Source: a virus. From it: a stretch of DNA of 41,085 nt. Below, in pieces: positions 4,568-41,085 of this stretch. The notes beneath the pieces are model-generated. The model was given only the letters and a program-made list of their open reading frames with translations. It was not told the DNA's origin and searched no databases. How positions within the stretch are numbered: the stretch's first letter is position 1; the number at the start of each line of letters is the position of its first letter. Position numbers and translations under genes: made by a program. Location of the stretch: the IMG/VR virus record IMGVR_UViG_3300034069_000436, positions 1-41,085 of that record; one strand, given 5' to 3'.

Positions 4568-4791
4568 GCGGAAACCCCGTCCTTGCGAGGCACCCGAACC
4601 TTTCTCGGATGCCGCGAAGCCAGCGCCTCTGACACACCGCCATAATTGGCTTGATCGCTCACCTGCGTTTTTCCGCAGCTAAGGCATCGCCGCTCTTGCA
4701 CGAGATACCAGCCCACCTGAGAGTGGAACCAAGTGAGGATGCCTTCTTCGGTCACGACCCAATCAGTCCACTTGTGACGGTGAAACATCAC
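4564..4791 (-). CDS. Hypothetical protein
   Basis: 75 aa ORF, ATGA-type overlap with the terL stop. Contains a CLSCG motif. Confidence 0.5.
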   Translation of the reverse strand: MMFHRHKWTDWVVTEEGILTWFHSQVGWYLVQERRCLSCGKTQVSDQANYGGVSEALASRHPRKVRVPRKDGVSA

Positions 4792-22635: not shown

Positions 22636-22863
22636 CTATGCGGTGATGGCCTTGACCGCCCACATGACGGCTTCTTCGGTCTTGGTCTTGGCGATAGACA
22701 GTTCGCGGCCACTGCCAGCTTTGGCGATTAGGTCAAGCATGTGTGCGCCCGCATCCTTGATGGCCACCATCTGCGCCTTCTCGTCGTCGGTTAGGACGCG
22801 ATACTGATGGCGAACGGCATTGTTGGCAGTTCGTTCGTCTGATTCGCTGTCTACGTCAGTCAT
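22636..22863 (-). CDS. Small helical-hairpin protein, possibly of the Acb2/Tad1-hairpin-like family (a candidate signalling-nucleotide sponge)
   Basis: Track ORF 22636..22998 trimmed to MTDVDSE at 22863, preceded by AGGAGcatctc. The motif pattern is YRVLTDDEKAQMVAIKDAG...GRELSIAKTKTEEAVMWAVKAIT. The family assignment is from memory of this motif only, with no search run. Confidence 0.45.
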   Translation of the reverse strand: MTDVDSESDERTANNAVRHQYRVLTDDEKAQMVAIKDAGAHMLDLIAKAGSGRELSIAKTKTEEAVMWAVKAITA

Positions 22864-23020
22864 GAGATGCTCCTGTGATGCTGCGATTGACGTAGCATAC
22901 GGACAGGCCCATGAACAGGGAGCCGGGGTCAGGTTGGAGCCTGCCCCGGCGGACAACGCGGTTGGGCGCGCTGCCACAATGAGGTGGCTACACGGCACAG
23001 CCGCTCCGGTAAAGGAGCGA
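22864..23020. promoter_or_regulatory. Divergent intergenic region of the accessory island
   Basis: 157 bp between divergent starts at 22863 (-) and 23021 (+). Contains TTGACG (22887-22892) and an imperfect hairpin, gccggggtcagg-ttggag-cctgccccggc (22922-22950). Confidence 0.35.
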
Positions 23021-23396: not shown

Positions 23397-23669
23397 CTAC
23401 TTCGCCACCGCCACCTCATTCGGCACGCGCGGGTCATTAGCGATGTTGGCAAGCTGCGTCGCGCGGTGGCGGGTCTTTAACTGGCCCCACACAATGATGG
23501 CACCACCGCCGACCATGCCGAGCATCGTTGCGGTGTCGCCTTCGATCCAATGGCGGCCTAGCGCAAAAGCAATGATAGCCGTGGTCATCTGCCGTACACC
23601 GGACCAAAGCTGATCTGGCAATGGTGATGCGCTGACCTCAATCTGTGGCGTCTCGTTGTCGTCGCTCAT
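23397..23669 (-). CDS. Membrane protein of the lysis cassette
   Basis: Track ORF 23397..23897 trimmed to MSDDNETPQ (ATGA overlap with the endolysin stop). Two hydrophobic segments: MTTAIIAFALG and MLGMVGGGAIIVWG. Confidence 0.55.
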   Translation of the reverse strand: MSDDNETPQIEVSASPLPDQLWSGVRQMTTAIIAFALGRHWIEGDTATMLGMVGGGAIIVWGQLKTRHRATQLANIANDPRVPNEVAVAK

Positions 23670-24118
23670 GGCCGCTTCCCTGTCTCGATCGCCGTAATTA
23701 CCCGCGAAGCGCGAGCCGGTGTTTGTTGCTTCGCCCACTTGGATTGGCGCAGGTTGGCAGCCGCGCCGCGCCAGTCCCCCTTGGCGATACACGCAAAGGC
23801 GTTGGCGAAAACCTCGTCCGATCCGGCGCCTAGCTGGAACTGCATGTTGAGGATGGCGGCCAGCCTCACAGCGTCGCCACGCACGGCGGAATACCACGGC
23901 TCCTTCTGAACACCCGTCAGCAGCAGCTTGAGCCGGTTAGCGTCGATGAACGACATTTCCTCGGGCAGCAGACGCCCGCCTTTGCGACGATCAATCATGA
24001 TGCCTCGGCCGATGGTCCAATAGCCCAGCGAGTCCTGATAGGCGTAGGGGATCGTTCCCTCATCGCGGTCTAGGTCGGTGTCGGCGTAGGCTAGGGCCTG
24101 TTGTTCGGTGGGGGTCAT
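23666..24118 (-). CDS. Endolysin, T4-lysozyme-like (GH24) muramidase
   Basis: Track ORF 23666..24277 trimmed to MTPTEQQALAY at 24118. Motif: DRDEGTIPYAYQDSLGYWTIGRGIMID. Confidence 0.8.
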   Translation of the reverse strand: MTPTEQQALAYADTDLDRDEGTIPYAYQDSLGYWTIGRGIMIDRRKGGRLLPEEMSFIDANRLKLLLTGVQKEPWYSAVRGDAVRLAAILNMQFQLGAGSDEVFANAFACIAKGDWRGAAANLRQSKWAKQQTPARASRVITAIETGKRP

Positions 24119-24606
24119 GCAGGGCCTCCTACAGGTGGAATAGCGGCCAGCCGGCTCAATGCCCGCGCGTATGGGTCGCCATCGCCCAGAACAGCCGCCG
24201 CCATGGCGATCAGCTCGCGCCCTTGCGAAAGGGCGGCGTTGGTCGGGTCTTTCGACTCCAAAGCGTTGGCGAAGCACGCGCTGGCGTTGGCAACATAGGT
24301 CATGGCGTTGCCCAAGTTATTAACCTGTTTTTCGAGCGCCGTCATCCTGTCGGCCATAGCCTTAGCTTCGTCCGCGATCGCCTTTTTTTCCGCACCAGCT
24401 AGATCAGCGTCTTGCTTCTTGCCGACTTGCCACGCTGTTATCCAGGCAGGACCAAAGCGCACGACGACGCCTGTCAGGATGAAAAGTTGTAAGACAATGC
24501 CGGCCCACACGCCGATTGCTGTCGGGCTCCAACCGGTTTGCGCGTTGACAGTCGGGACAATCGCCCCGATCGTCTTAGCGGCCGAGACGGCGAGACCAGG
24601 AGCCAC
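24115..24606 (-). CDS. Membrane / coiled-coil protein of the lysis cassette (holin or spanin candidate)
   Basis: 163 aa, GTG start. TM segment WAGIVLQLFILTGVVV, followed by a helical K/E/A-rich segment. Confidence 0.5.
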   Translation of the reverse strand: MAPGLAVSAAKTIGAIVPTVNAQTGWSPTAIGVWAGIVLQLFILTGVVVRFGPAWITAWQVGKKQDADLAGAEKKAIADEAKAMADRMTALEKQVNNLGNAMTYVANASACFANALESKDPTNAALSQGRELIAMAAAVLGDGDPYARALSRLAAIPPVGGPA

Positions 24607-25560: not shown

Positions 25561-26106
25561 TCATTGGCTGCGGAACTCGACAGCCGCAATCTGGTTGTAA
25601 TTGGTGCCGTCCGGATAAATCAGCGGGGGCAAAAAGTCACTGGCCACGCCGATCGGATTCATCGTTGCGCGCTGTGTTGCCGGGGCTGGTTTCTGGCCGC
25701 CGAAGAACGCTACGCCGGCATGATTCTGGTTGCGGGTAAAGCCGCGCGGGTTGACCACGCCGAACGACAAAGCACCTCGGTAGACGGTGAACATGATGTA
25801 CCCTCCGCCTGACACCTTGCCATCGGACAGGTCCGAAGATGAAGACATGCGCTTGGCGTAAACACCGTCATTTGTGGCGTTGTAAGTTGCCACGGTAGTC
25901 CAGTTTGACCCGGGAGGCGGAGGCGCGGCGTTAGACGAGCCCGGTTGCGCCTGCCCAAAAAACAAGACGGTGTCGCCAATTTTAGCGATTGTCGGCACTT
26001 GATAGAACGTACCGTTCGTATCACCGCCGTTGCTCACCGCATAGGCGCCAACGAACGCAACCGTCGCAGGGGATGCCCCGGTGGATGCAAGCAGCGCGCC
26101 GCTCAT
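25561..26106 (-). CDS. Hypothetical tail-associated protein
   Basis: Track ORF 25561..26601 trimmed to MSGALLAS at 26106 (ATGA overlap with the fibre gene). 181 aa. Confidence 0.55.
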   Translation of the reverse strand: MSGALLASTGASPATVAFVGAYAVSNGGDTNGTFYQVPTIAKIGDTVLFFGQAQPGSSNAAPPPPGSNWTTVATYNATNDGVYAKRMSSSSDLSDGKVSGGGYIMFTVYRGALSFGVVNPRGFTRNQNHAGVAFFGGQKPAPATQRATMNPIGVASDFLPPLIYPDGTNYNQIAAVEFRSQ

Positions 26107-26681
26107 CCGACACCCACGCCGTAGATCAGCCAAGTGTCGGTGCCGATTTTCAGCAGCGTGGCAACGCCGTTCTGCGCCAAGGCCCGCGCGCCAGTCGAGT
26201 TGGTGGCGGCAAGCGTCAGTGTAACCCCGCTGGCTGGCGTTATGGCTTGGCTGGCGGTTCCGGTATTCAGGATGATGACGATATCCCCAGCCGCAAACGG
26301 CACCGTCGCGTTGGTGGGCACCGTAATGCCGCCCGTCGTGATCGGGATCGCCATCGCCACATCGGTAAGAGCGATCGTATAGGCTGCCGTGCGCTGCTGG
26401 GTGAACGGCAAGGTGCGATAGCCTAGCAATCGCTCGGCGCCTGCCGTGTCGTAGATGGTGGATGTGTTGCCGAACCGCTTGACCGCTGCGCCGAGGAGAT
26501 CGTTGACAGTCGTAGCGCCAGATCGAACCAGCGTCGGCAGCAGGACCGCCACCTGTGCCATAATCGCGCGGATAGCATTGTTGATGCCGCCTGGGGGGCA
26601 ACCCTCGTCAATGTTGATCCCTGCGACATCGGTATTGTTGTCGCTATTTGTTGACCAGTCACTTACCGTCGCTTTTGCCAT
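26103..26681 (-). CDS. Tail fibre protein
   Basis: 192 aa. The N-terminus TVSDWSTNSDNNTDVAGINIDEGCPPGGINNAIRAIMAQ matches the conserved fibre N-terminal motif I know from alphaproteobacterial phage and GTA fibres. Confidence 0.6.
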   Translation of the reverse strand: MAKATVSDWSTNSDNNTDVAGINIDEGCPPGGINNAIRAIMAQVAVLLPTLVRSGATTVNDLLGAAVKRFGNTSTIYDTAGAERLLGYRTLPFTQQRTAAYTIALTDVAMAIPITTGGITVPTNATVPFAAGDIVIILNTGTASQAITPASGVTLTLAATNSTGARALAQNGVATLLKIGTDTWLIYGVGVG

Positions 26682-26683
26682 GG

Positions 26684-27214
26684 CTACGTCCTAAACCAAG
26701 TCTTGCGCTTTTGAATGTTGCGGATGGTATCTGCGCAAACGCTATACTTATTCGCGAGCGATGGCGCGCTGTTTCCGGCAGCGAGTGCAGCCCTTATTTC
26801 ATCAACGCTTTGCTGTGTAAGTTTCGCGAAAGGCGAGGTTTCACCATGATGAGGATTCGTGCCGTGGGCGTAGGCATCCGCGATGTTCTCCGCACGGGTG
26901 CCCCAACGTAGGTTTTCCGCTCTTGCGTTCCTGCGGTCTCCATCCTTGTGAAGCACCTCGCATCCTTGGGGCTTTTCTCCGTGAAAGGCGGTGCACACTA
27001 AAATGTGGACGGGCATGTTTTTGCGGACAAGGGTTGTGACATTAACAACGGGATAGCCGCGTGTGTATCCCGGCGACAGAAAGGTTCCTTTGCGGCGATA
27101 TCCCGGCAAGCTACGCACTCTGCCGTGAGAACTTACTTCATAGCTACCCTCGGCGCCCACTACCGGACGCCACTCTTCGCTGGTATAATCGGGGGTAGTC
27201 ATAGCGTGCTCCAT
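26684..27214 (-). CDS. Free-standing HNH homing endonuclease (NUMOD4 + HNH_3 + C-terminal HTH)
   Basis: Track ORF 26684..27409 trimmed to MEHAMTTPDY. Motifs: EEWRPVVGAEGSYEVSSHGRVRS, HKDGDRRNARAENLRWGT, SLANKYSVCADTIRNIQKRKTW. It looks lower in GC than the flanks, with a 145-bp non-coding leader at 27215-27359. Confidence 0.8.
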   Translation of the reverse strand: MEHAMTTPDYTSEEWRPVVGAEGSYEVSSHGRVRSLPGYRRKGTFLSPGYTRGYPVVNVTTLVRKNMPVHILVCTAFHGEKPQGCEVLHKDGDRRNARAENLRWGTRAENIADAYAHGTNPHHGETSPFAKLTQQSVDEIRAALAAGNSAPSLANKYSVCADTIRNIQKRKTWFRT

Positions 27215-27359
27215 CACGTTGTGATTAGAGCCGGGCAGCGTTGACCGCGCTGTTCCGGCTCGTTTTCGATATACACTAAAACGGGTCCAAGTGCTACGAT
27301 GCGGCATGACGATGACCGGCATCGCTTTGGGTTGTGCGCTGAAGGGCGTGGTCATGGCT

Positions 27360-30356
27360 TTATTGTCCCGCGACCGGGAGCAGCCCGAGGCCGGCTCCGA
27401 ACATGCCACCGAGGCGGCGACCGGTCGAATTGTCGATATACGCCCGATACGCGTTCTGACGCGCGAGAAGCGCCGTTAGCGCGTTCGACGCTTCCGCCGG
27501 GTTAGTGTTGAATACATATGGCGCGATCTGGTCCGCCTTAGCCACGGCTTTGTTTCCCAGCCCGAGCGCGACACGGTCTTTTAGGCCCAAGCCCGCAATG
27601 CGTGCGGCGGTACCCGGCAACGTAGCCCCGCCAGTCGCCATTGCGGCAGCGCCATGCAAGCCCGCTTCGATCAGCGGATTCGCGGCGAAATCTGCGTCGG
27701 CAATTTGACGCGCCGCCGTCAATGAGTTGCCCAACACCGTGTTGTTCGTGCGGGCAAGCTGGCCCTCTAGATCGCGGGTGCGCAGCAGCGCCGCGTTTCC
27801 CGGATTGTTCGGATACAGGCTCGCAAGCCTCTGTTCAGCGGCCGGCGTTCCCAGAGTGGCGTCGAACGGGTTGCTAGCGTAGCGCGCGCTATTGGCCCGG
27901 TCCATTAACGCGCCGCGATAGCCAAGCTGCATCTGCGAAATGTTGCCCGGTGCCGTGTTCGCCAAGTCAACGCCAAGCTGGTTAGGATTGGCGGTGAACG
28001 CATCCTGCCCTGCCTGCAAGGCGTTGGTCGCCTCCATGGGACCAGCATAGGCGCGCCGCGCCTGCCCGTAGAGCGGATTCGCGTTGTCCAGCGTGGATAG
28101 AAAGCTTTTTCGGGTGTCGTTAATCGCGTTTCCGGCAGTGTTCAGGCGCTGCGTCAGCGGATCGCGGGCGGCGTCGACCGTATCGTCAAGACCCCGCTTT
28201 ACATAGTCGAGCGTCTGCCACGAAGGTACACGGGTCAATGTCGGGTTGCCTTGCGGATCAAGGTCAAAGCCGAGCGTCGTAGGATCACGTCCTTCTTCAG
28301 CCGCAATGTTACGGGCGCGGCCGAGCGCGTTTTGTACCGAAGGCTTGGCAAGGAATGGCTTAATCTGTGGGTATGCCGCGCCCGCCCCAGGTGCCGCGTA
28401 TGCCGCATCATACAGCGGCCTGGCCTGCGTGCGCGCCTGCTTGAGCAAGTCCTCACTCATCTGCGGCACGTTACCGACCGGCCCAAGATTGGTCGTGACA
28501 GACTGCCCTAGCCGATCAATTTGCCCGCGCGCCCGAGCGCCAAACGTATCCTGCGCGATTTGCGCCGCGTCGGGCGATCGGCGTACAACCTGACCGCCAA
28601 GAGTGGCCATCTGCGCGCCGGTATCGGCCAGCGACATAGGCACGCCGAGCCGCTGCGCTTCGGCGAGCTGATCCGTAATGCTGGCTGGGCCGATCTGCTT
28701 AGCGCGGGTGGCCAAGAGGTTTTCGCCAGCGTTAAGAGGTGAAGGGGCGCCGCGCTTGGCGAACATGCCGCCAACCTTGCGCCCGAACATCCCCCCGCCA
28801 ACGCCAGCACCAGCGCCAAGCAGCGCACCGCCCAAACGACTACTGTCGTCGGCCGCGCCAGCGCCAGACACACCGCCGAATAGAGCATCCGCACCCCGCG
28901 CGACCCAAGGCGACGCGGCAGAAATGCCGGCACGCCCTGCCGCTGCACCAACACCGAGTTCGGTCCCAGCCGCCGCCAGTCCCGCACCAGTGATATCACC
29001 GAGCAGTCCCGACGTAGGGTTGGCCGCGCTCGCACCCGCCAGTCCCGCGCGGGCCAACGCGGGGTCGGCTGTCATGTTGTCCAGCGTGTTGCCGGTCAGC
29101 GCGTTGGCGGCGCTCATGGCATAGGTGCCCAGCGGCGAGGTGCCGCCGTTGAGCGAAAACGCGGGCTGAAGCTGCGGCTTCATCGCTGGCGCGACGTTCG
29201 GCCCGAAGCTGCCGTACCCATGGTTGGCACGGCGGTACTTCAGATTGTCCAGCAAGCCCGAGGCGGCGGGGTCGATGCCGGCTCCCTTGGCAAACGCCGT
29301 CACCTCGTCGTCGGGCCGCCCCGATGCGAGCATGGACGAAAGTTGGTCCACGACTTTCTGACGATCGGGATCGGGAGCCATGCCGCCGGGGCCGGAACCG
29401 ATGCCCATACCGGCGGGACCGGGAGGTGGCGTGCCGCCCGGCCCGGAGCTGCCGCCTGCACCTGTATCACCGCCAGTATTCGGCAAACCGCCCTGATGGC
29501 CCTGCACGGCCTGTGCAACCAGCGCGGCGGTGCTTTCCGGCACTGAAAAGCCAGGTTGGTTGGTCAAGCCCTTGTAGGCGCCGTTAATGCCCGCATGGAT
29601 CGCCGCCATGCGGTTAGCCATGTCGGTCTTCATCTGGTCGAACGCCGATTGCTTCTGGTCGACACTGCCGCTGCCGTTGATTGTGCTCATCGCCTCATGG
29701 CGCGCACTATCCGACAGTGTACCGGCGCCGCTTGGGCTGCCGGCAACAACCTTGGCGTATTCGTTGACGAACGTGTTGTAGGCAGCGTCAGCGGCGGAAA
29801 TCGTTGTTCCCCCAAACCGACGCTGCACCCAATCGCTAATGGCGTTTAGCGGCGCAAAACGGGTCTGACCGGGCAATTCACGGCTGCGGTCGAGAAATTG
29901 CTGCCCATTGGTGAGCGCCGTCTGTTCGTTGACGCCGATCGTGCCCGCCATGTTTTCCAAGTTGGCGATTTGCTTCGACCCGGCTTTGTAGTGCGCCACC
30001 TGTGTCGCGAGGTCGGCGCCATTGAGCCCGCGCGCGCCTGCCTGCCGCGCGACTTCGGCCATGACTGCCTGTCGCGCGGCAGCGGCCTGCTTGCCCATGC
30101 CCAGCGCAGGCATCTGGCCTCCAGCAAGCACCTGCTGCGCCATGTAGCTGACCGTCGCGGGGTCAATTGCCGGCTCGTCCTGTTGCGCAGCTTCGCGCGC
30201 CAGCTTGGCGTTTTGCAGTCGCCGCGCCTCTAGTTCCGCTGCAGCTTGTGCGCCCTTGTACCGATACGCCGGGTCGGGGTCGCCAACCGCCACGTACCCC
30301 GCATATGGGTTGGCGCTCGGCACCGCGTATTTCGCGTAAGGATTGTCCTGCGCCAT
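27360..30356 (-). CDS. Large internal virion / DNA-ejection protein (putative)
   Basis: Track ORF 27360..30419 trimmed to MAQDNPYAKYAV at 30356 (TAATG overlap). 998 aa, A/G-rich, with a G/P low-complexity linker. It follows the SLT-domain protein, as in podovirus ejectosome gene sets. Confidence 0.55.
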   Translation of the reverse strand: MAQDNPYAKYAVPSANPYAGYVAVGDPDPAYRYKGAQAAAELEARRLQNAKLAREAAQQDEPAIDPATVSYMAQQVLAGGQMPALGMGKQAAAARQAVMAEVARQAGARGLNGADLATQVAHYKAGSKQIANLENMAGTIGVNEQTALTNGQQFLDRSRELPGQTRFAPLNAISDWVQRRFGGTTISAADAAYNTFVNEYAKVVAGSPSGAGTLSDSARHEAMSTINGSGSVDQKQSAFDQMKTDMANRMAAIHAGINGAYKGLTNQPGFSVPESTAALVAQAVQGHQGGLPNTGGDTGAGGSSGPGGTPPPGPAGMGIGSGPGGMAPDPDRQKVVDQLSSMLASGRPDDEVTAFAKGAGIDPAASGLLDNLKYRRANHGYGSFGPNVAPAMKPQLQPAFSLNGGTSPLGTYAMSAANALTGNTLDNMTADPALARAGLAGASAANPTSGLLGDITGAGLAAAGTELGVGAAAGRAGISAASPWVARGADALFGGVSGAGAADDSSRLGGALLGAGAGVGGGMFGRKVGGMFAKRGAPSPLNAGENLLATRAKQIGPASITDQLAEAQRLGVPMSLADTGAQMATLGGQVVRRSPDAAQIAQDTFGARARGQIDRLGQSVTTNLGPVGNVPQMSEDLLKQARTQARPLYDAAYAAPGAGAAYPQIKPFLAKPSVQNALGRARNIAAEEGRDPTTLGFDLDPQGNPTLTRVPSWQTLDYVKRGLDDTVDAARDPLTQRLNTAGNAINDTRKSFLSTLDNANPLYGQARRAYAGPMEATNALQAGQDAFTANPNQLGVDLANTAPGNISQMQLGYRGALMDRANSARYASNPFDATLGTPAAEQRLASLYPNNPGNAALLRTRDLEGQLARTNNTVLGNSLTAARQIADADFAANPLIEAGLHGAAAMATGGATLPGTAARIAGLGLKDRVALGLGNKAVAKADQIAPYVFNTNPAEASNALTALLARQNAYRAYIDNSTGRRLGGMFGAGLGLLPVAGQ

Positions 30357-34062: not shown

Positions 34063-34299
34063 TTACAGGCTTAGACCTGCCGCATCGCGCCATACACCGG
34101 ACACTGCGTCCCACCATTCCGGCTTCTTCGTGGTGGTGTTCCAACGCCCTTGCGCGAGCGCAGGCCGAGCCGGGCGCTGCGCGGTAGTCCCGACATCAGT
34201 CAGGCGGGCGCTAAGCTGGTTGATGGCCTTCGCCGCCTGCCGTTGCCAATCCTCGATGCCGACCGGGCTGCTGTTCGGGACAGTTGGCACAGTCGTCAT
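34063..34299 (-). CDS. Hypothetical protein
   Basis: 78 aa, with a 4-nt overlap upstream. Confidence 0.5.
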   Translation of the reverse strand: MTTVPTVPNSSPVGIEDWQRQAAKAINQLSARLTDVGTTAQRPARPALAQGRWNTTTKKPEWWDAVSGVWRDAAGLSL

Positions 34300-35729
34300 G
34301 CGCGTGAGCCCTGTTCGTAATCCAGATCAATGCCTTGAAAGAACGTCCACGACTGCGGTGGAATGACCACCCATGCCTGTACGTAGTTCCAGCTCTCACG
34401 TACCCTTATCGTTCCCGATGCTCGCGCCGAGGCATAGGTCGTCGTCGTCTGCGAGCCAGCAAGAGAGTTCGACCCGGCAATGCCGACTTGCGGGCTGGGA
34501 GCGTCCGTCATCGGTCGGACCGCTTGCAACCTAGCCCGATAGCCCGGAATCAGTTCCTTGCGCCCGTCGCCGAACGTGGCGGGTAGGGGCATCCCCGTAA
34601 ACGAGCCGAGCGTGTTGCTCCCGTCGAACGCCAGCAGGATTGGATACCCACCTCGTAGCGCGATACTGTCGAGGGAGAAGGGAATGGCATCGATCGAGCC
34701 ATACAACCCGTCAAGCTGTTCCAGCGACGTAGCGTTTGCAAGGCCGCTGACCAACCGGGACACCGGGGTTGTCGCGGTAGACCATTTGTCCAGCAGATAG
34801 TTGTAGATCAGCAGCCGATTGGCCGGAAAGGCCGATGGCAGGGTGACGATGTAAAGCGAGTTCTGCGGATCGACCACCGCCGTCACGCTATCAATGTAAG
34901 AGCGGTCGGACAGCCCCCGAAACCAGCGGTCAACCTTTTCCGATCCGATCGGCGTCATGGTCGAGCCGTCGAACGACATGAACCCGCGATTGGACAGGAA
35001 GAACGTCGTTGTGCCCCACGTCGCCAGCGTACCCGGCGCGACGCAACCCACGTCCTTCGCAACCTCGTCGAACTGCCACACCCGGCTATCGGCCGTGTAG
35101 CTCATGCGGACGATGCGGTTTTCCTGATAGACGTAGCCGGCCTGATTGTTGCCGCCGACAAGTCCCGTCACGTCGCCGCCCGTTGCCATGTCGGCCACGC
35201 CAGCCTCCGATGCAGTGCTGGGCGTCCATGATTCCGGCGCGCCTTGGTCGGACCATGCGATGCGGTTAGGCGATCCCGAGGCGTAGCCTAGCACCGTAAA
35301 GCCACCCACAACGGCAATATAGCGAGCGACCGGAGGCGAACCGCCCAGATTGGCAATGGCGTTTGTTGGCGCCGGGGTGAATTTCTTCACGGGATCGGCG
35401 CCGTTGGTCATAATAAGCAGCGAGGCATAAGGAACGGCCTGCACGCCAATCAGGTTGTTCAGGCCCGTCGCCATGCTGGTAAAGCCACCGGCCGCCACCG
35501 AATAGATGGTGGTGGCGTCCGCAGCAAACGAGTAAGTGACGCCAGCCGTGCGGTAGGCAAATCCGCCATAGGGTCGGCTGCCCAATCCTCCGTTGGCATT
35601 GGGGACGAACGAGTAGAATGGTCCGTAGCCGTTCTTAACGGGAAAACAGCCATCGGCAGTTACAATCCCTTCGCTCAAAAAAGGGGGCTGATCGGGCAAC
35701 CAGCTTCCGAATGTAACACGCTGCTTCAC
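34296..35729 (-). CDS. Tail structural protein (tail tube / nozzle candidate)
   Basis: 477 aa, beta-rich, MKQRVTFGSWLPDQPPFLSEG... The call rests on position in the tail block only. Confidence 0.45.
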   Translation of the reverse strand: MKQRVTFGSWLPDQPPFLSEGIVTADGCFPVKNGYGPFYSFVPNANGGLGSRPYGGFAYRTAGVTYSFAADATTIYSVAAGGFTSMATGLNNLIGVQAVPYASLLIMTNGADPVKKFTPAPTNAIANLGGSPPVARYIAVVGGFTVLGYASGSPNRIAWSDQGAPESWTPSTASEAGVADMATGGDVTGLVGGNNQAGYVYQENRIVRMSYTADSRVWQFDEVAKDVGCVAPGTLATWGTTTFFLSNRGFMSFDGSTMTPIGSEKVDRWFRGLSDRSYIDSVTAVVDPQNSLYIVTLPSAFPANRLLIYNYLLDKWSTATTPVSRLVSGLANATSLEQLDGLYGSIDAIPFSLDSIALRGGYPILLAFDGSNTLGSFTGMPLPATFGDGRKELIPGYRARLQAVRPMTDAPSPQVGIAGSNSLAGSQTTTTYASARASGTIRVRESWNYVQAWVVIPPQSWTFFQGIDLDYEQGSRA

Positions 35730-36361
35730 GCTCGCACGCCGAGCCCGTCATAGACGTTGGCGCGCATGACGATCGGCCCCCCGTAACGCGCGCGGTTGCC
35801 GGCTTTGTTGATATCGTCGATAATCGACGCCAACTTGGCTTGGATGATCGGCAAGCGGCTATCCGTCCAGCCGAAGAACTCCGCTTGCAGCAGCGTACCG
35901 AACAGATAGGCGTCGGGATGCTTGGTCAGCAGCCAGTTGGTCTCGTTGTCGGGCGTGATCGCGGGAATCGCCTGCCGATAGACCAGATTGATGGTGTACG
36001 CGGCGTCAGGCGAAGGCCAGACATACAAGTTCTGATTGCTGGTAGCGTAATATTGGGGCTGGCCCGCTACGGGCGCAGGTAGCGCGTAGAACTCGTTGAA
36101 GCCAAGCTGCTCCAGCGGCCACGAAGGAGCGCCGACAATGGCGAGAGACCGGATGCTGTCCACGTCGGCGGGTAGCGCAGGATTGAACGGATCGATCGTC
36201 ACCGTTGCTTCCATGTCGGGCGTGACGATGTTGCGCCGGAAATCCGCTTCTGCCAGCGCAATCATATTGGGAATATTGTCAGTCAGCGAATCCCCGGCGT
36301 CGTCGAGCCACGCCTGTACCGCCGCAACTAGCCCGTCATAAGTGCGGATATCCTGCGCCAT
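35726..36361 (-). CDS. Head-tail adaptor / tail tubular A-like protein (putative)
   Basis: 211 aa. The N-terminus YDGLVAAVQAWLDDAGDSLTDNIPNMIALAEADFRR resembles an adaptor-family motif I recall from podoviruses. Confidence 0.4.
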   Translation of the reverse strand: MAQDIRTYDGLVAAVQAWLDDAGDSLTDNIPNMIALAEADFRRNIVTPDMEATVTIDPFNPALPADVDSIRSLAIVGAPSWPLEQLGFNEFYALPAPVAGQPQYYATSNQNLYVWPSPDAAYTINLVYRQAIPAITPDNETNWLLTKHPDAYLFGTLLQAEFFGWTDSRLPIIQAKLASIIDDINKAGNRARYGGPIVMRANVYDGLGVRA

Positions 36362-36371
36362 AACTGCACCC

Positions 36372-37100
36372 TTACGCCTTTCCGAGCATCACAGCAGCCC
36401 CGTCCGTGCCGCTGCTAAATGTCATTGAAGGGGCTGCGCTCGGCAGAGCGCCATAAGCCACAGTTCCCACTAGATATCGGCCCGGAGTACTAAGATCTTC
36501 ACCAATTGCACGGGGATAGATACCCATTGCAGAAGTGCTGATACCCTTGACCGTCGCGGGAGTAGAGCCTTGCTTAAACAAGGCCGCCGCGAAGTAGATG
36601 CCCGGATTGAGATAGGCGTTCATGCCGTTCAGAAACAGGCGAGCGCCCGCAACCGCCGCCGAGTTGACGGCCGAGTCCAACGACAGCTCGCCCGCGTCTT
36701 TCACCAGCGCGCCGAACCCTCCCGTGCTGCGATCCAGCCCGTACATGCCCATGCGGACCGCGCAGCCTGTCTGCGGGGTGGTCAGATGGATGCCGATACT
36801 GTTGATGTTGACCTTGCGGTGGAACACGAACTTCTGGGCGATCAGCAGCCCGGCCGCCGGGGTGCGGTCGGTCAGCGCCGTGATGCCGGGCGCGAACTGC
36901 GCGAAGCCGGACGGCCAATACTGGTCGTCGAACGCCGTCAGTATCCACTCGGCCGAGCCGGTCGTGGCGTTGGCGCAGGTCCACTGTTCACCGGTGTTGC
37001 GGTTGAACCAGCTGGAGCCGATCACATAGCCCTGGCTGGCGTCGTTGCCGGCATTGGGGTCGATGGTCGCAGAGAGGTTGTTCTTGATGTCGGCCATCAT
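36372..37100 (-). CDS. Tail fibre-like protein
   Basis: 242 aa. DPNAGNDASQGYVIGSSWFNRNTGEQWTCANATTGSAEW is a common fibre motif. Confidence 0.55.
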   Translation of the reverse strand: MMADIKNNLSATIDPNAGNDASQGYVIGSSWFNRNTGEQWTCANATTGSAEWILTAFDDQYWPSGFAQFAPGITALTDRTPAAGLLIAQKFVFHRKVNINSIGIHLTTPQTGCAVRMGMYGLDRSTGGFGALVKDAGELSLDSAVNSAAVAGARLFLNGMNAYLNPGIYFAAALFKQGSTPATVKGISTSAMGIYPRAIGEDLSTPGRYLVGTVAYGALPSAAPSMTFSSGTDGAAVMLGKA

Positions 37101-38435
37101 TCAGAGCTCCAGAACAGCATCGCGCATCGAGGCGAGCTGGGGTGTGGGTTGAAAATCGGCGGTGTAGGCGCAGGGCATCTCGCCCGCGGTCGACATCCAG
37201 CTGTTGTAGCCGTTGTCGAGTGTCCACTCGACCAGCATGCCGCCACCGGTCGACTGAACGATGGGCAGCGCGACATCGAGGTACTGCTTGCGGATGTTGC
37301 TCGCGATCCGCTCGTACTCGTAGGCGCTGTAGCTGGTCGGCGCGGGCGTATCGACCTTGCCATAGGCGTCGATGATGCCATCGCCGTAGCCCGTCCGGAC
37401 GTCGATCTCGGAGACGATGATCTTGAGCCCGAGGCCGACGAGGCCTTGCAGAAAGCTGCGCAGGCGCGGCGCCGAGAACGACAGCCGGAACTGCATGTGC
37501 GCCTGCTGGGCATAGCCATCAACCACTGCGCCCGCCTGTATCGCCGCCGTGATGCCGGCGAGCGTGTTCTGGGCAAGGTTGTTGAACGTCGACGAGCCCA
37601 GCTGCTCCGTCTGGTCCTGACACCAGAACAGCGGCACGCCGGGTAGCTTCTGCCGCACGCGAGCGATGGCGAACAGCACCGGCGCCAGATAGTCGTCCTG
37701 GGTGGCGGTCGAGGCGGTGCGGCCAGCGACCGTCGCCGCCGCGGTGTTCCACGGATTGGTCCGCCAGCCGCCCGGATTGGTGGAGCCCGCGGAGAAGAGC
37801 TCGTTCACGACGTCGGCGTTCGCGATGATGTCGGTGTATCCGGCGAGCAGCCCGCAGATCGCGTCGATGCGGGCGGCCATCAGCGTCTGCCACTGGCCGG
37901 GGTTCTGCTGGAGGTACGTGTCGATCCAGGTGCCGATGTCGCGCTTGGGGTAGACGCCGATGACGTGGCCGCGGACCTTCTTCCCCTTGGCTCGCGCGTC
38001 GTCCAGGAATGCCTTGGCGGGGTTGAGGTTGAAGCTGCCCAGCGACGGATTGAAGTTGTCGCCCATCATCACGTAGCCGGGCACGTACAAGTCGACGTTG
38101 TCCGCGATCCACGCCTGCCGGGTGGCATAGCCCGCTGGCCCCGCCGCGCCCATGACGTCGCCGCCCTGGATCGAGGTGCCGAGCAGGATGCCCTTGTTGG
38201 CGCTGATCGTCTTGAGCAGCCCGCCGGGATCGACGGTGTAGCTGCCGACCAAAGCATTCCCAGAAACATCTGTTTCTCGGTTATTAGCTAGGTCAATTAA
38301 GGTACCCGCAATGCGGGTGGGAGCGACCAAAATAACGGCGGGTTGATGCCCACCCATCGAATTGACGATGACATCCTCGTCAGGAGTGGGCTGCCGACCG
38401 CCATACGACGCCAGCGTGTCCGACAACACAGACAT
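37101..38435 (-). CDS. Tail-associated glycoside hydrolase, GH10-like (clan GH-A TIM barrel)
   Basis: 444 aa. The ordered motif series is KGKKVRGHVIGVY, ADVVNELF, LFWCQDQTE, VDGYAQQAHMQ, LKIIVSEIDVR, LVEWTLDNGYNSW. This parallels GH10 RGH / WDVVNE / NDYN / G.Q.H / ITELD / WG..D..SW. Confidence 0.65.
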   Translation of the reverse strand: MSVLSDTLASYGGRQPTPDEDVIVNSMGGHQPAVILVAPTRIAGTLIDLANNRETDVSGNALVGSYTVDPGGLLKTISANKGILLGTSIQGGDVMGAAGPAGYATRQAWIADNVDLYVPGYVMMGDNFNPSLGSFNLNPAKAFLDDARAKGKKVRGHVIGVYPKRDIGTWIDTYLQQNPGQWQTLMAARIDAICGLLAGYTDIIANADVVNELFSAGSTNPGGWRTNPWNTAAATVAGRTASTATQDDYLAPVLFAIARVRQKLPGVPLFWCQDQTEQLGSSTFNNLAQNTLAGITAAIQAGAVVDGYAQQAHMQFRLSFSAPRLRSFLQGLVGLGLKIIVSEIDVRTGYGDGIIDAYGKVDTPAPTSYSAYEYERIASNIRKQYLDVALPIVQSTGGGMLVEWTLDNGYNSWMSTAGEMPCAYTADFQPTPQLASMRDAVLEL

Positions 38436-38644
38436 CAGCCGCCGCTTAGCTTGCCGATAATGGCGAGAGCCACATCACCGGCAGGAGCCAAGCTGACCTG
38501 CCCGGCCGGGCCGATTGGCGGCTCAAAATCGATTACCGTTGGAGAGCCGTGGTAGTCGATGCTTTCGATCTCGTCGGCGCCAACGTAATATCCATCGCCA
38601 TTCTCGCGGAGTGAAAAAGTACGGCCGGCTATATTGATATCCAT
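38435..38644 (-). CDS. Hypothetical protein
   Basis: 69 aa, with 1-nt overlaps at both ends. Confidence 0.5.
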   Translation of the reverse strand: MDINIAGRTFSLRENGDGYYVGADEIESIDYHGSPTVIDFEPPIGPAGQVSLAPAGDVALAIIGKLSGG

Positions 38645-39072
38645 TATTGCCTCCCGACGACGCGGACGGGAAGGCCCGAGGTCGCGTTAGAAATTGGCGA
38701 AACTGTCAACCCGAGTAATGCCGTTGCCACAGTCGGCAAGGTGGTTGCTACAAGCTGCCAGCACTTCCCGCTGAACGTAGTGGCCGTCACAGCACTAACC
38801 GTACATTTGTAGGGCGTGTTACCCGATGAGGGGATGTCCGCCAGATACCCGGTTGGCGGCGCGCTGAACGGAATGGCCCACGTTCCTGAGAACGTACCAT
38901 CGGACAGCGTGTTCGTTGTCGCTGCCTGAATTTGTCCCTGCATGAGAGTCAAGTTAGTCGCAGCGGCTGCGGACAAATCGTCTGGGCTAACCCCGTTGGG
39001 GGCTACGGTCGCTTGGCCAAAGACCGGAGAGCAGATAAGGCAAATCGCTCCTGCGGCTTGTAGGACCTTCAT
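38644..39072 (-). CDS. Predicted secreted protein (Sec-type signal peptide)
   Basis: 142 aa. MKVLQAAGAICLICSPVFG|QATVAPN. Low-GC codon usage. ATGA overlap upstream. Confidence 0.55.
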   Translation of the reverse strand: MKVLQAAGAICLICSPVFGQATVAPNGVSPDDLSAAAATNLTLMQGQIQAATTNTLSDGTFSGTWAIPFSAPPTGYLADIPSSGNTPYKCTVSAVTATTFSGKCWQLVATTLPTVATALLGLTVSPISNATSGLPVRVVGRQ

Positions 39073-39863
39073 TTTGCCTGCCCCGAAAGAGTGATCGGCG
39101 CGGTGCCGACTGGCGTGTATGTCGTGCAGCTAGTTGAAAACAGAAGCGTTACACCGGTCGACAAAAGCAAGGGCGTAGTAAATCCCTTATCATAGCTGCT
39201 CGATGCCGCAAGTTGATAACAATACGGCGTACTCGCCGCCGCCAACGTAGCGCCACTAGCCGGGGCAGCGCTGGCATTGTAAACCACAATATACCCCGCC
39301 GCTGTCGAATTTACGATATTGATGCTGTAAAGCGCACCTGCGGTGGCCTTGATGACAACTGCCGTTACACCCTGCGCCGTCGTTCCTGCAACCGGTCCAG
39401 GTGTCGTGTAAAGGTTGCCGAAAAAGTCGCACTGCAAACTACCCTGATACTGGTCGGCCCACGCAGCTCGGGTAGCGTAACTCTTGCACCCGATAAGATC
39501 AGATGTAAGCGTGGTGGAAAGCATCGTCGCTGGATCGACGTTACCGGCAGATGACACACCGACTTTCAAACGACCCGTTGTGATGCAGTTCAGCGGGTTA
39601 CTCGTTCCTACGATGTAGGTCTGATTGCCCGTGACAGCCGTACACAGCGACAGCGTGCCACCTTGCCCCATCGTCGTAGAGCCCTGCGCGCTACCGCCGA
39701 TGCTAGCCACCAGCGGCACACGGAGGGTTTTCCCGCTTCCGTCATTCGCCGGGACTGTCGTGGCTGCATCATAAGGAGGTGTGTTCTCCTTTTGAGTGAC
39801 GGTCTGCGCCTGCGCCACAATCGGCAGCAACAGCGGCAGAGTGTGAAGCAGGCGCAGCCGCAT
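39069..39863 (-). CDS. Predicted secreted T/S/G/A-rich beta protein (Sec-type signal peptide)
   Basis: 264 aa. MRLRLLHTLPLLLPIVAQA|QTVTQK. Low-GC region. TAATG overlap upstream. Confidence 0.55.
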   Translation of the reverse strand: MRLRLLHTLPLLLPIVAQAQTVTQKENTPPYDAATTVPANDGSGKTLRVPLVASIGGSAQGSTTMGQGGTLSLCTAVTGNQTYIVGTSNPLNCITTGRLKVGVSSAGNVDPATMLSTTLTSDLIGCKSYATRAAWADQYQGSLQCDFFGNLYTTPGPVAGTTAQGVTAVVIKATAGALYSINIVNSTAAGYIVVYNASAAPASGATLAAASTPYCYQLAASSSYDKGFTTPLLLSTGVTLLFSTSCTTYTPVGTAPITLSGQAK

Positions 39864-40279
39864 TACTTGTTGCCCTTCTTGGTGTGATGCTCGGGCGTGT
39901 CGATGTACGCCGCGCGCTGAGCCTCGGCATGACTGACACCGCCCTTGGGCGTGTCGTTGGTCTCACCCGGCGTCGGAGTATCGTTCTCCGCGACGACCAG
40001 CATCTGCGGCACATCCCGACCGGCGAGCGGCGGCTGTTCGCGCATGCCGTCATAGGTGCCGTCGTCGGGCTGAATGGCGCCGGACGAATGCTCCGAACGG
40101 CTCACCTGCTCGTCGGTGCCGACCAGCTTGTCCGTCGTATCAGCCTCGCCGGTAACTTCCTGCGTCTTTGCGTTGGCCTCGTCCGACACCTTGACGCGCG
40201 CCTTCTGCTGATCGTCCAGCGCCTTGGCCGTCTGCGTGTTGATGTTGTCGTCCGGCTTGTCGATCTTCTTGGTGGTCAT
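39863..40279 (-). CDS. Acidic, likely disordered virion-module protein
   Basis: 138 aa, D/E/T/K-rich. Confidence 0.5.
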   Translation of the reverse strand: MTTKKIDKPDDNINTQTAKALDDQQKARVKVSDEANAKTQEVTGEADTTDKLVGTDEQVSRSEHSSGAIQPDDGTYDGMREQPPLAGRDVPQMLVVAENDTPTPGETNDTPKGGVSHAEAQRAAYIDTPEHHTKKGNK

Positions 40280-40289
40280 GTCACGTCTC

Positions 40290-40613
40290 CTAAAGGCGGA
40301 ACTGGTTGGTCCGCAAATGAGCGTATTCGCTGCTGTTCAAAAGGCGACGGACGCCTTCCTTGTGATTAGGGTCATACAGGTTGACCCCGTGCTTGTTGAT
40401 CCATTCCATGATCGTCACGGCAGGGATATGAGCGGCGTGCCACATGTCGGCGCGACGGTCGAACCCCTCCGCTTGCTGTTCCTTGTTGGCGTCAAGAATC
40501 GGCGTGGCGTCCTGGCGATAACGAAACCCCCATGTGTCACCGTCGTCCTGTGCGGCAAACTCCGTGGTCAGCCCCGTGGTGGGATCGTGATCCAATTGCC
40601 GCCAAGCACTCAC
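40290..40613 (-). CDS. Hypothetical head-module protein
   Basis: 107 aa, with a 4-nt overlap upstream. Confidence 0.55.
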   Translation of the reverse strand: MSAWRQLDHDPTTGLTTEFAAQDDGDTWGFRYRQDATPILDANKEQQAEGFDRRADMWHAAHIPAVTIMEWINKHGVNLYDPNHKEGVRRLLNSSEYAHLRTNQFRL

Positions 40614-40830: not shown

Positions 40831-41085
40831 TTACGACGGGGTGATATCGGCGATCACACCGGATGCCGCGTCATTGCTGCACCGCAGAGTAACCTCCGTG
40901 TACATGGCATCACGGTCGGCAAGCCCGGTCGTCGCCAGCTTGCGACGCTGCATGGGGTCGAGTTCCATAATCTGCCACATGTCGGTATCCAGCACCAGCG
41001 CGTCGCGCGTAGTGCCGATGTTCCGATCCGGCACGAACGCCAACTCGCCGAAGTCCGACACGTACACGTCGGCGCCGCCGATGAT
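40831..41085 (-). CDS. Major capsid protein, C-terminal segment (same gene as 1..864; 40945-41085 duplicates 1-141)
   Basis: Track ORF 40831..41067 is in frame with my capsid reading across the overlap. Position 40945 corresponds to position 1 at a codon boundary. Confidence 0.85.
   Translation of the reverse strand: MIGGADVYVSDFGELAFVPDRNIGTTRDALVLDTDMWQIMELDPMQRRKLATTGLADRDAMYTEVTLRCSNDAASGVIADITPS
40945..41085. repeat. Right copy of the 141-bp terminal direct repeat
   Basis: Identical to 1-141. Confidence 0.97.

What the first reader, a model, noticed from the sequence alone, without database searches (positions are those of the whole stretch)
37101..38435. GH10-like TIM-barrel glycoside hydrolase in the tail module (candidate polysaccharide depolymerase)
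The ordered motifs RGH, VVNE (acid/base Glu), QDQTE, G-x-QQ-H, SEID (nucleophile Glu) and W..D..SW follow the order and approximate spacing of GH10 endo-beta-1,4-glycanases. An N-terminal region of about 70-100 aa could dock to the tail, and the gene lies next to a fibre-like gene.

Most described phage depolymerases are beta-helix lyases or hydrolases. A GH10-type barrel as a tail enzyme would be uncommon. It would predict a beta-1,4-linked capsule or exopolysaccharide as the receptor.
Basis: partly seen in the sequence, partly recalled or inferred. Interest (0 to 1): 0.6.

Follow-up and report, generated by a model that had tools for sequence, protein, structure and literature searches.

The report
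Phage GH10 glycanase with carbohydrate-binding partner
A complete 41-kb short-tailed phage genome carries an intact family-10 glycoside hydrolase, a family I found in no cultured phage, always paired with a sugar-binding virion protein and placed where related phages keep tail-fibre genes, so it is most likely a sugar-coat-cutting infection enzyme rather than a xylanase.

Summary
ORF 37101-38435 (-) encodes a 444-aa GH10 TIM barrel (PF00331, 70 bits; the top 50 PDB fold matches are all GH10). The acid/base Glu212 and nucleophile Glu343 are invariant in homologues.

- The Glu-Asn-x-x-Lys triad that xylanases use to bind xylose is replaced (Gly120/Tyr121/Met124). It is therefore probably not a xylanase, and the linkage it cuts cannot be predicted.
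- The gene forms a mobile two-gene cassette with the next gene (36372-37100), and the pairing persists down to 24% GH10 identity.
- The cassette occurs in a second, unrelated podophage tail region and as sporadic phage-derived islets in Aureimonas and Sphingomonas.
- In the window it lies in a 3.9-kb block inserted between the capsid-side genes and the adaptor. Related phages with an expanded slot carry tail-fibre or tailspike genes there.
- The "fibre-like" partner is homologous to gp25 of cyanophage A4 (E 3e-10). gp25 is a carbohydrate-binding trimer seen on the capsid, not the tail, so head versus tail mounting is open.

No cultured phage, PHROG family or viral structure-library entry holds a GH10.

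Verdict: a new variant of a known kind (phage polysaccharide depolymerase). Interest is moderate. Virion attachment and substrate are inferred, not shown. The scan has not noted this gene family on other DNA.

The parts
37101..38435 (-). GH10-family glycoside hydrolase gene (444 aa plus stop). It has no signal peptide and the highest GC3 of the 44 genes.
   Evidence: ORF. PF00331 70.2 bits. Fold hits are all GH10. GC3 0.854, z = +2.6; maximum hydropathy 1.09 in the first 40 aa.
38307..38435 (-). Residues 1-43: a variable, disordered N-terminal segment and the candidate docking peptide.
   Evidence: pLDDT below 50 for residues 1-40. Homologue alignments begin at residue 44. N-termini are unrelated among homologues. 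No match to any other window protein.
37122..38216 (-). The (beta/alpha)8 catalytic barrel, residues 74-438.
   Evidence: Pfam envelope 74-438. Eight strands in the AF2 model.
37800..37805 (-). Asn211-Glu212: the acid/base catalyst at the end of barrel strand 4.
   Evidence: Aligned to the xylanase 'vvNE' motif. Invariant in 24 of 24 subfamily members. Codons verified.
37407..37409 (-). Glu343: the catalytic nucleophile in barrel strand 7.
   Evidence: Aligned to xylanase 'sElDv/tElDi'. Invariant in 24 of 24 members. Codon verified.
38064..38078 (-). Gly120-Tyr121-Val-Met-Met124: the remodelled -2 subsite, where xylanases have Glu-Asn-x-x-Lys.
   Evidence: Pairwise alignment with 1xas and 1e0v. 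Subfamily table: P-G-[YFS]-V-M-M in the window's clade, canonical ENxMK kept in P0016, P0022, P0023 and P0027.
36372..37100 (-). Partner gene (242 aa), whose start directly abuts the GH10 stop. It has an N-terminal about 50-aa module plus a carbohydrate-binding beta-sandwich.
   Evidence: Follows GH10 in every locus with sequence downstream: L001, L002/L003, L004, L013 and L115. AF2 pLDDT 78.5.
36936..37088 (-). Partner residues 5-55: a small beta module shared with annotated tail and tail-fibre proteins of other phages.
   Evidence: tblastn hits to Dinoroseobacter phage R7L tail protein (near its N-terminus), Pseudomonas phage SM1 tail fibre and Roseobacter phage CRP-3. phrog_33012. Widespread in viral contigs.
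36375..36893 (-). Partner residues 70-242: a CBM-like beta-sandwich homologous to cyanophage A4 auxiliary cement protein gp25.
   Evidence: Profile against PDB 9jwb_Z: E 3.2e-10, partner 70-236 to chain 40-201. Foldseek E 4e-8, TM 0.55/0.65. gp25 described in PMC12002296. Also matches phrog_21562 'tail protein'.
38435..38644 (-). 69-aa ORF whose stop overlaps the GH10 start (TGATG). Function unknown; not conserved with the cassette.
   Evidence: Junction sequence. No Pfam or PHROG hit. Unrelated to the ORFs upstream of GH10 in other loci.
36362..40289 (-). Inserted six-gene block (138, 264, 142 and 69 aa, GH10, partner) between the conserved 107-aa head-proximal gene and the adaptor gene. It is compositionally mosaic.
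   Evidence: In Microcystis phage Mvi-Yong1342-1 the 107-aa homologue abuts the adaptor. The capsid-to-nozzle interval is 5.1 kb here against a median of 2.1 kb in 44 relatives. GC3 runs 0.84 / 0.61-0.64 / 0.85 / 0.78 across the block.
35726..36361 (-). Tail adaptor gene (context).
   Evidence: PF24175 SU10_adaptor, 89 bits. PDB 7z47 adaptor, 1e-8.
34296..35729 (-). Tail nozzle gene (context).
   Evidence: phrog_3287. Homologues annotated as nozzle or tail tubular protein. Weak PDB nozzle hits.

Best explanation
The gene encodes an active retaining beta-glycanase of family GH10. Glu343 is the nucleophile and Glu212 the acid/base. The sugar-binding cleft has been remodelled at the -2 subsite, so its substrate is probably a bacterial surface polysaccharide (capsule, EPS or O-antigen of an alphaproteobacterial host) and not xylan.

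It works together with the product of the next gene. That protein is a carbohydrate-binding virion protein related to cyanophage A4 gp25, which is a trimer in A4. The two genes travel together as a mobile cassette.

Proposed mechanism:
1. Both proteins lack signal peptides and are made late with the virion proteins.
2. The partner anchors to the particle and binds the polysaccharide.
3. The enzyme, held through its phage-specific N-terminal 43 residues, cuts the polysaccharide so the short tail can reach the outer membrane.

Shown: family, fold, conserved catalytic residues, loss of the xylose triad, operon position, cassette conservation and mobility, partner homology, and use of the same slot for fibre/spike genes in relatives.

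Inferred: catalytic activity, presence in the virion, contact between the two proteins, the substrate, and whether the site of attachment is tail or head.
For: Family and catalytic machinery:
- Family and fold.
- N211-E212, Q311, H313, E343, W404 and W413 are conserved in the 10 close homologues.
- They are conserved in nearly all of the 24 aligned subfamily members.
- The -2 triad is replaced.

Operon and late expression:
- GH10 is translationally coupled in the virion operon.
- Neither protein has a signal peptide, whereas the two neighbouring genes do.
- A separate endolysin candidate lies at 23666-24277.

Cassette conservation:
- It recurs at 46-57% GH10 identity and 38-63% partner identity.
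- It also recurs at 24% and 33% identity in L115.

Other contexts:
- A second phage context, L013, lies upstream of a Polysacc_lyase-domain protein. Next comes a P22 gp10-type hub protein.
- In Aureimonas the gene is preceded by a 'tail fiber' mini-protein, phrog_12296, E 1e-21.
- Homologues of that mini-protein precede tail-fibre genes in the same slot of L065 and L068.
- Expanded slots in relatives carry tail-fibre or spike genes, including one with Peptidase_S74.

Partner:
- It is a homologue of a structurally proven virion surface CBM protein.

Bacterial carriers:
- The cassette is sporadic in bacteria: 0 of about 600 other genomes in the two carrier orders.
- That pattern fits phage-borne spread.
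Against: - There is no direct evidence that either protein is in the virion.
- The GH10 N-terminus matches no known anchor domain and no other protein of the phage.
- No GH10-partner fusion was found.
- The partner's solved homologue sits on the capsid, not the tail.
- The phage already has a small tail-fibre-like gene at the canonical position, 26103-26681.
- In three bacterial loci the pair stands without other virion genes, so it can evidently persist outside a phage.
- Coordinates of the model were not available, so the Glu-Glu geometry was not measured.
Confidence: 0.55

Rival explanations
1. Head-mounted version. The partner is a capsid decoration or cement protein like A4 gp25, a trimer on the threefold axes. 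The GH10 enzyme rides on it or acts beside it. The capsid surface, not the tail, would then carry the carbohydrate-binding and cutting activity, giving first reversible contact with, and movement through, the polysaccharide layer.
For: - The partner's CBM domain is homologous to A4 gp25 by sequence profile (E 3.2e-10) and by fold.
- gp25 is resolved on the capsid, and its authors suggest the CBM may bind host receptors.
- The cassette lies directly after the head genes and before the adaptor.
- One neighbour of a partner relative hits a 'head decoration' PHROG.
Against: - The homology excludes gp25's N-terminal capsid anchor. The partner instead has an N-module found in annotated tail proteins.
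- The window's adaptor and nozzle are not detectably A4-like, and no gp37-like major cement protein was identified.
- The same slot holds tail fibres in relatives.
- The CBM part also matches a PHROG labelled 'tail protein'.
Confidence: 0.2
2. Soluble helper enzyme. GH10, with or without the partner, is not assembled into particles. It is released at lysis and degrades the surrounding polysaccharide matrix. This frees progeny and exposes neighbouring cells, as free phage depolymerases do.
For: - No recognisable anchor domain.
- A compact single-domain enzyme of 444 aa, unlike long trimeric spikes.
- Intact copies persist in bacterial chromosomes without virion genes.
Against: - Tight translational coupling inside the virion operon.
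- Constant pairing with a homologue of a virion surface protein.
- A variable N-terminal 43 residues next to a conserved body, the usual signature of a lineage-specific docking segment.
Confidence: 0.17
3. Auxiliary metabolic gene. It would be a true hemicellulase (xylanase) that the phage carries to boost the host's use of plant polysaccharide during infection.
For: - The Pfam family is dominated by xylanases.
- Viral glycoside hydrolases are often read this way in virome surveys.
- Canonical GH10 genes occur on 11 uncultured gut-virome contigs.
Against: - The xylose-binding -2 triad is lost.
- There is no signal peptide, so it cannot be secreted to reach plant polymer.
- It sits in the structural operon, not among early or metabolic genes.
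- It is paired with a virion-type protein.
Confidence: 0.04
4. Binding-only or otherwise non-hydrolytic protein. The barrel would serve as a lectin-like receptor-binding domain without turnover.
For: The remodelled cleft and long divergence from characterised enzymes.
Against: Both catalytic Glu residues and the whole -1 subsite set are invariant across 24 divergent members. That is not expected without selection for catalysis.
Confidence: 0.04

Closest known systems
GH10 endo-beta-1,4-xylanases (for example Streptomyces lividans Xyn10A 1e0w/1xas, Paenibacillus XynA 3rdk, Cellvibrio Xyn10A)
   Same: - (beta/alpha)8 barrel with acid/base Glu after strand 4 and nucleophile Glu in strand 7.
- The same -1 subsite residues: His, Asn-Glu, Gln/His and two Trp.
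- PF00331 scores well above its cut-off.
   Different: - The Glu-Asn-x-x-Lys triad of the -2 subsite is replaced by Gly-[Tyr/Phe/Ser]-x-x-Met.
- The Trp four residues after the catalytic-site His is not conserved.
- 'YNDYN' is replaced by 'CQDQTE'.
- There is an extra conserved N-terminal hairpin (residues 44-73) and no signal peptide.
- It is phage-encoded.
- Only about 18% identity to solved enzymes.
Phage tailspike or tail-fibre polysaccharide depolymerases (P22 and K1F-type beta-helix or beta-propeller spikes)
   Same: - Position among virion genes, in a slot used for fibre or spike genes by relatives.
- A conserved enzymatic body with a variable N-terminal segment.
- Horizontally mobile.
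   Different: - The fold is a TIM barrel, not a trimeric beta-helix or propeller.
- It is a small single-domain enzyme.
- Carbohydrate binding is on a separate polypeptide.
- No recognisable anchor domain.
Clan GH-A (GH5) TIM-barrel proteins of phages (Pseudomonas phage POR1, Ralstonia phage RSB3, Erwinia phage phiEaP8, uncultured Caudovirales)
   Same: The same clan and fold in phage proteins. They are the best matches in the viral structure library.
   Different: - A different family: GH5, not GH10.
- The matches are weak (E 5e-7 to 1e-5, 11-14% identity).
- Several are domains of long tail proteins rather than a free 444-aa enzyme with a separate partner.
Cyanophage A4 gp25 auxiliary cement protein (PDB 9jwb chain Z; PMC12002296). 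Closest known relative of the partner gene.
   Same: - A homologous CBM-type beta-sandwich running to the C-terminus, including the R-x-G-x-Y and Y-G-x-L-P motifs.
- A podophage of about 41 kb.
- A proposed role in host glycan binding.
   Different: - The N-terminal anchor is not homologous.
- No GH10 partner is mentioned in the A4 paper.
- In A4 the gene lies beside the tail-fibre gene, after the ejection proteins, not between capsid and adaptor.

Membership tests
Glycoside hydrolase family 10 (clan GH-A) | Sequence match to the family model above the curated threshold over the full domain | tested here: met
   PF00331 scores 70.2 bits against a 22.1 cut-off and covers profile positions 2-309 of 311. 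The profile of 10 homologues hits 49 PDB GH10 sequences at E <= 1e-6.
Glycoside hydrolase family 10 (clan GH-A) | (beta/alpha)8 barrel with the acid/base Glu at the end of strand 4 and the nucleophile Glu in strand 7 | tested here: met
   The AF2 model has eight strands, with E212 after strand 204-211 and E343 in strand 338-347. The top 50 PDB fold matches are all GH10. The Glu-Glu distance was not measured because no coordinates were available.
Glycoside hydrolase family 10 (clan GH-A) | Conservation of the catalytic pair and -1 subsite residues in homologues | tested here: met
   N211, E212 and E343 are invariant in 24 of 24 members. H313 and W404 are invariant. Q311 and W413 are conserved in 23 of 24.
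Glycoside hydrolase family 10 (clan GH-A) | Retaining hydrolysis of a beta-glycosidic bond | not testable with these tools
   Needs an enzyme assay.
Endo-beta-1,4-xylanase (EC 3.2.1.8) within GH10 | The -2 subsite triad Glu-Asn-x-x-Lys (E44/N45/K48 in S. lividans Xyn10A) that binds xylose | tested here: not met
   The triad aligns to G120/Y121/M124. P-G-[YFS]-V-M-M is fixed in the window's clade, while four distant subfamily members keep ENxMK. It should therefore not be filed as a xylanase.
Phage tailspike/tail-fibre depolymerase | Gene in the receptor-binding-protein region of the virion module | tested here: met
   It lies between the capsid-side genes and the adaptor. Relatives with expanded intervals carry tail-fibre or spike genes there. 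A second phage context is L013.
Phage tailspike/tail-fibre depolymerase | Recognisable N-terminal particle-binding domain | tested here: not met
   Residues 1-43 are disordered. They match no other window protein and no PHROG or Pfam family.
Phage tailspike/tail-fibre depolymerase | Trimeric beta-helix or beta-propeller catalytic body | tested here: not met
   The fold is a TIM barrel.
Phage tailspike/tail-fibre depolymerase | Physical presence in the virion | not testable with these tools
   Needs virion proteomics or cryo-EM.
A4 gp25-like capsid auxiliary cement protein (partner gene) | Homologous CBM beta-sandwich | tested here: met
   hmmsearch E 3.2e-10, partner 70-236 to chain 40-201. 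Foldseek E 4e-8.
A4 gp25-like capsid auxiliary cement protein (partner gene) | N-terminal anchor that lies on the major capsid protein | tested here: not met
   The alignment starts at chain residue 40. Partner residues 5-55 instead match modules of annotated tail proteins.
A4 gp25-like capsid auxiliary cement protein (partner gene) | Trimer at the icosahedral threefold axes, on a gp37-type major cement layer | not testable with these tools
   No multimer modelling or map is available. No gp37-like protein was identified in the window, and this was not searched exhaustively.

The most novel reading that the evidence does not exclude
The cassette is a capsid-displayed enzyme system. Trimers of the gp25-like partner would sit on the capsid facets and hold GH10 enzymes there. 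The phage head would then both bind and cut the host's polysaccharide layer. This would be a head-borne depolymerase that lets a short-tailed phage burrow through the matrix before the tail engages. The cassette could also be plugged into different phages, and it survives as free-standing islets in bacterial chromosomes.
Probability: 0.15. Interest if true: 0.75.

Novelty: new variant of a known kind. Interest (0 to 1): 0.45.

Why it matters
Phage depolymerases decide which encapsulated or slime-producing bacteria a phage can infect, and they are sought as anti-biofilm enzymes. Nearly all described ones are trimeric beta-helix or propeller spikes.

This cassette would add three things:
- A glycoside hydrolase family not seen in cultured phages.
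- A split design, with the enzyme and the carbohydrate-binding anchor on separate, co-inherited polypeptides.
- A portable unit that moves between unrelated podophages and bacterial chromosomes.

It also warns against annotating viral GH10 genes as xylanases or as carbon-cycling auxiliary genes. Here the xylose-binding residues are gone and the context is structural.

The homology of the partner to a capsid-bound protein raises a testable question. Can polysaccharide binding, and perhaps cutting, be carried on the head?

Tried and rejected
1. GTA accessory locus idea. I asked whether the orphan bacterial cassettes resemble RcGTA's off-cluster head-spike locus.
   - RcGTA rcc01079 and rcc01080 have no conserved domains.
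   - The GTA g15 TIM domain is present in the Aureimonas genome but was not found in the Sphingomonas MAG.
   - The cassette was not found in about 600 other genomes of the two orders.
   - The idea is not supported.
2. Rosetta-stone fusion of GH10 and partner. The long subfamily members P0014 and P0017 show no partner-like region. Long hits carry GH10 only by Pfam.
3. Shared upstream gene. The 69-aa ORF upstream in the window and the 105-aa ORF in L013 are unrelated to the Aureimonas 'mini tail-fibre' protein.
4. Shared N-terminal anchor within the phage: none.
5. Close relatives of this phage. None came up in IMG/VR by single-protein pattern scans with the adaptor or nozzle. Only distant relatives, about 30-35% nozzle identity, came up via an alignment.
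6. GH10 subfamily in IMG/VR and JGI metagenome contigs by pattern scan: none besides the window's own record.
7. Plasmids: no match.
8. Literature.
   - No paper was found describing a GH10 phage depolymerase.
   - My recollection that Rhizobium PssW is a GH10 EPS glycanase could not be checked in the library. It is not used as evidence.
9. Lysis role. A separate lysozyme-type candidate exists at 23666-24277, and GH10 is not a peptidoglycan hydrolase family.
11. Model coordinates are not exposed, so the catalytic geometry could not be measured.
Full report
**1. What the window is**

The window is a complete viral record of 41,085 bp with direct terminal repeats.

- On the minus strand it encodes terminase (4788-6368), portal (2157-4382) and scaffold (904-1857).
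- The capsid gene runs across the record ends; its C-terminal part is 40831-41085.
- Next come small head-proximal genes and then the region of interest.
- After that come the adaptor (35726-36361, PF24175 SU10_adaptor) and the nozzle (34296-35729).
- Last come the ejection-type proteins, including a lytic transglycosylase region.

Cultured relatives, judged by the nozzle, are about 35-45 kb podophages. They infect Microcystis, Paracoccus, Rhizobium, Bradyrhizobium, Pelagibacter and other hosts.

**2.

ORF 37101-38435 (-) is 444 aa.

- PF00331 (Glyco_hydro_10) matches at 70.2 bits against a 22.1 cut-off. It covers almost the whole model on residues 74-438.
- phmmer and a profile of ten homologues hit only GH10 xylanases in PDB.
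- The VVNE and SEID motifs align with the acid/base and nucleophile motifs of solved enzymes.
- An AF2 model (pLDDT 74.6, pTM 0.76) has eight barrel strands, with E212 after strand 4 and E343 in strand 7.
- Its top 50 Foldseek matches in PDB are all GH10.
- In ten close homologues (46-57% identity) and fourteen more distant subfamily members, N211-E212 and E343 are invariant. The rest of the -1 subsite set (Q311, H313, W404, W413) is invariant or nearly so.

**3. It is probably not a xylanase**

- The alignment with S. lividans Xyn10A (1xas, 1e0v) places G120, Y121 and M124 where the enzyme has E44, N45 and K48. From established knowledge of GH10, that triad binds the xylose in the -2 subsite.
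- P-G-[Y/F/S]-V-M-M is fixed in the window's clade. Four distant subfamily members still have ENxMK.
- The canonical YNDYN stretch is CQDQTE here, with E277 invariant.
- The profile search of 1.84 billion representatives found 1048 GH10-like proteins. Only 20 scored at E <= 1e-30, so this is a small, divergent subfamily.
- Two distant members start with Tat-like signal peptides. The window's clade has none.

**4. GH10 and the next gene form a cassette**

- The next gene (36372-37100, 242 aa) starts directly after the GH10 stop.
- Every locus that had sequence downstream of a GH10 homologue has a homologue of this gene at a gap of a few bases:
  - a Sphingomonas MAG (L001);
  - Aureimonas sp. 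SK2 (L002, L003);
  - two Logan contigs (L004, L013);
  - a metagenome contig (L115).
- In L115 GH10 identity has fallen to 24% and partner identity to 33%.
- No other window gene has a homologue in those loci.

**5. The contexts of the cassette differ**

- L013 is a phage tail region of another lineage. GH10 and the partner are followed by two small genes, then a protein with a Polysacc_lyase domain. A P22 gp10-type hub protein comes last.
- In Aureimonas the cassette is preceded by a 90-aa ORF that matches the 'tail fiber protein' family phrog_12296 over its full length (E 1e-21).
- The Sphingomonas and L004 copies have ordinary bacterial neighbours.
- None of about 600 other sampled genomes of the two carrier orders has a close homologue.
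- The bacterial copies therefore look like sporadic phage-derived islets, not a conserved host or GTA function.

**6. The slot is a cargo site for receptor-binding genes**

- In Microcystis phage Mvi-Yong1342-1 the homologue of the window's 107-aa gene (40290-40613) abuts the adaptor.
- In the window six genes lie between the two (36362-40289).
- Among 44 IMG/VR relatives that carry both capsid and nozzle, the capsid-to-nozzle interval is 1-3 kb in 38 and 4.8-7.9 kb in six. The window has 5.1 kb.
- The extra genes in the expanded relatives are tail-fibre or tail proteins by PHROGs. One has the Peptidase_S74 endosialidase-chaperone domain.
- Two of these relatives also carry the 83-aa homologue of the Aureimonas mini tail-fibre protein.
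- The inserted block in the window is compositionally mosaic. GH10 has the highest GC3 of 44 genes (0.854, z = +2.6), the partner has 0.78, and the three genes upstream have 0.61-0.64. This fits separate acquisitions.
I only confirmed their hydrophobic N-termini.

**7. The partner is not a fibre**

- Residues 5-55 form a small beta module. It also occurs near the N-terminus of the Dinoroseobacter phage R7L tail protein, inside the Pseudomonas phage SM1 tail fibre, and in many viral contigs.
- Residues 70-242 form a beta-sandwich (AF2 pLDDT 78.5).
- Its only strong PDB match is chain Z of the cyanophage A4 capsid asymmetric unit, by fold (E 4e-8) and by sequence profile (E 3.2e-10).
- That chain occurs once in the entry. 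This fits gp25, which has one copy per asymmetric unit.
- The A4 paper describes gp25 as follows (PMC12002296):
  - It is an auxiliary cement protein.
  - It has an N-terminal anchor plus a carbohydrate-binding module and forms trimers on the threefold axes.
  - Its CBM superposes on that of a GH10 xylanase, BiXyn10A.
  - It may bind host receptors.
- The anchor is not shared. The same CBM part also matches a PHROG labelled 'tail protein'.
- Partner relatives elsewhere sit among tail-fibre-like genes and one 'head decoration' hit.
- Whether the window's partner sits on the head or on the tail cannot be decided here.

**8. Rival roles**

- Lysis: a separate lysozyme-type candidate exists at 23666-24277.
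- Metabolic xylanase. Three observations argue against it:
  - the xylose triad is lost;
  - there is no signal peptide;
  - the gene sits in structural context.
- Soluble enzyme released at lysis: this stays open, because no anchor domain is recognisable.

**9. Novelty**

- The protein matches no PHROG family.
- It has no hit in 50,697 phage records, none in 72,556 plasmids, and no other record in IMG/VR by pattern scan.
- A canonical GH10 query finds only 11 unannotated human-gut virome fragments and no cultured phage.
- The viral structure library offers only weak GH5-type clan GH-A barrels.
- No paper describing a GH10 phage depolymerase was found.

The kind of thing, a phage enzyme for host surface polysaccharide, is known. 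The new elements are the family, the split enzyme-plus-CBM design and its mobility.

**10. Limits**

- Virion presence, the enzyme-partner contact, the substrate and the mounting site are all inferences.
- The contexts of most subfamily representatives could not be looked up.

Noticed in passing
window 22636-22998 (-): A 120-aa protein with an Acb2/Tad1 hairpin domain (PF24729, 70 bits). It is a candidate sponge for cyclic-nucleotide immune signals, that is, an anti-CBASS or anti-Thoeris protein.
   Followed up: no
L013:3049-4029 (+): A 326-aa protein with a Polysacc_lyase domain (PF14099, 32.5 bits, residues 155-308) lies directly upstream of a P22 gp10-type hub gene, where an adaptor would be expected. 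It may be a lyase carried at the head-tail junction of the second GH10-bearing phage.
   Followed up: partly
L002:9729-10001; L065:3575-3826; L068:5072-5323: An 83-90-aa 'tail fiber protein' family (phrog_12296) precedes different large genes in the same slot. These are tail-fibre genes in two IMG/VR podophages and GH10 in Aureimonas. It may be a conserved small adaptor for swappable receptor-binding genes.
   Followed up: partly
window 25561-26681 (-): Two overlapping ORFs. The 192-aa one (26103-26681) has PHROG tail hits (phrog_8780, 1.9e-8). The 346-aa one (25561-26601) has no hits and a low GC3 of 0.62. The longer ORF is probably not the real gene over the overlap.
   Followed up: partly
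window 26684-27409 (-): An HNH endonuclease (phrog_59, 1.5e-45) lies between the large ejection-type protein and the tail-fibre-like gene.
   Followed up: no
window 36362-40289: The inserted block is compositionally mosaic. GC3 is 0.84 (138 aa), then 0.61-0.64 (264, 142 and 69 aa), then 0.85 (GH10) and 0.78 (partner), against a genome mean of 0.705. This suggests at least three separate acquisitions.
   Followed up: partly
G002:C3:12602-13432 (locus L017): Aureimonas sp. SK2 holds a second, weaker GH10-subfamily match (E 7.6e-24) that is interrupted by one TAA stop. It may be a decayed copy.
   Followed up: no
GH10 subfamily N-termini (P0011, P0016, P0022, P0023, P0025, P0029; L115:1538-2938): Most subfamily members share a repeated N-terminal motif of the form D-x-x-G-x-x-L-x-D-x-x-G-N-x-[LI]-x-G just before the barrel (window residues about 49-65). 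Several begin with Gly/Ile-rich 'IGIGIG' stretches. The meaning is unknown.
   Followed up: no
phage records MT835587-MT839786 (hits H48-H58): Eleven unannotated 'Bacteriophage sp.' contigs from human faecal viromes carry canonical GH10 genes. Whether these are truly viral was not examined.
   Followed up: no
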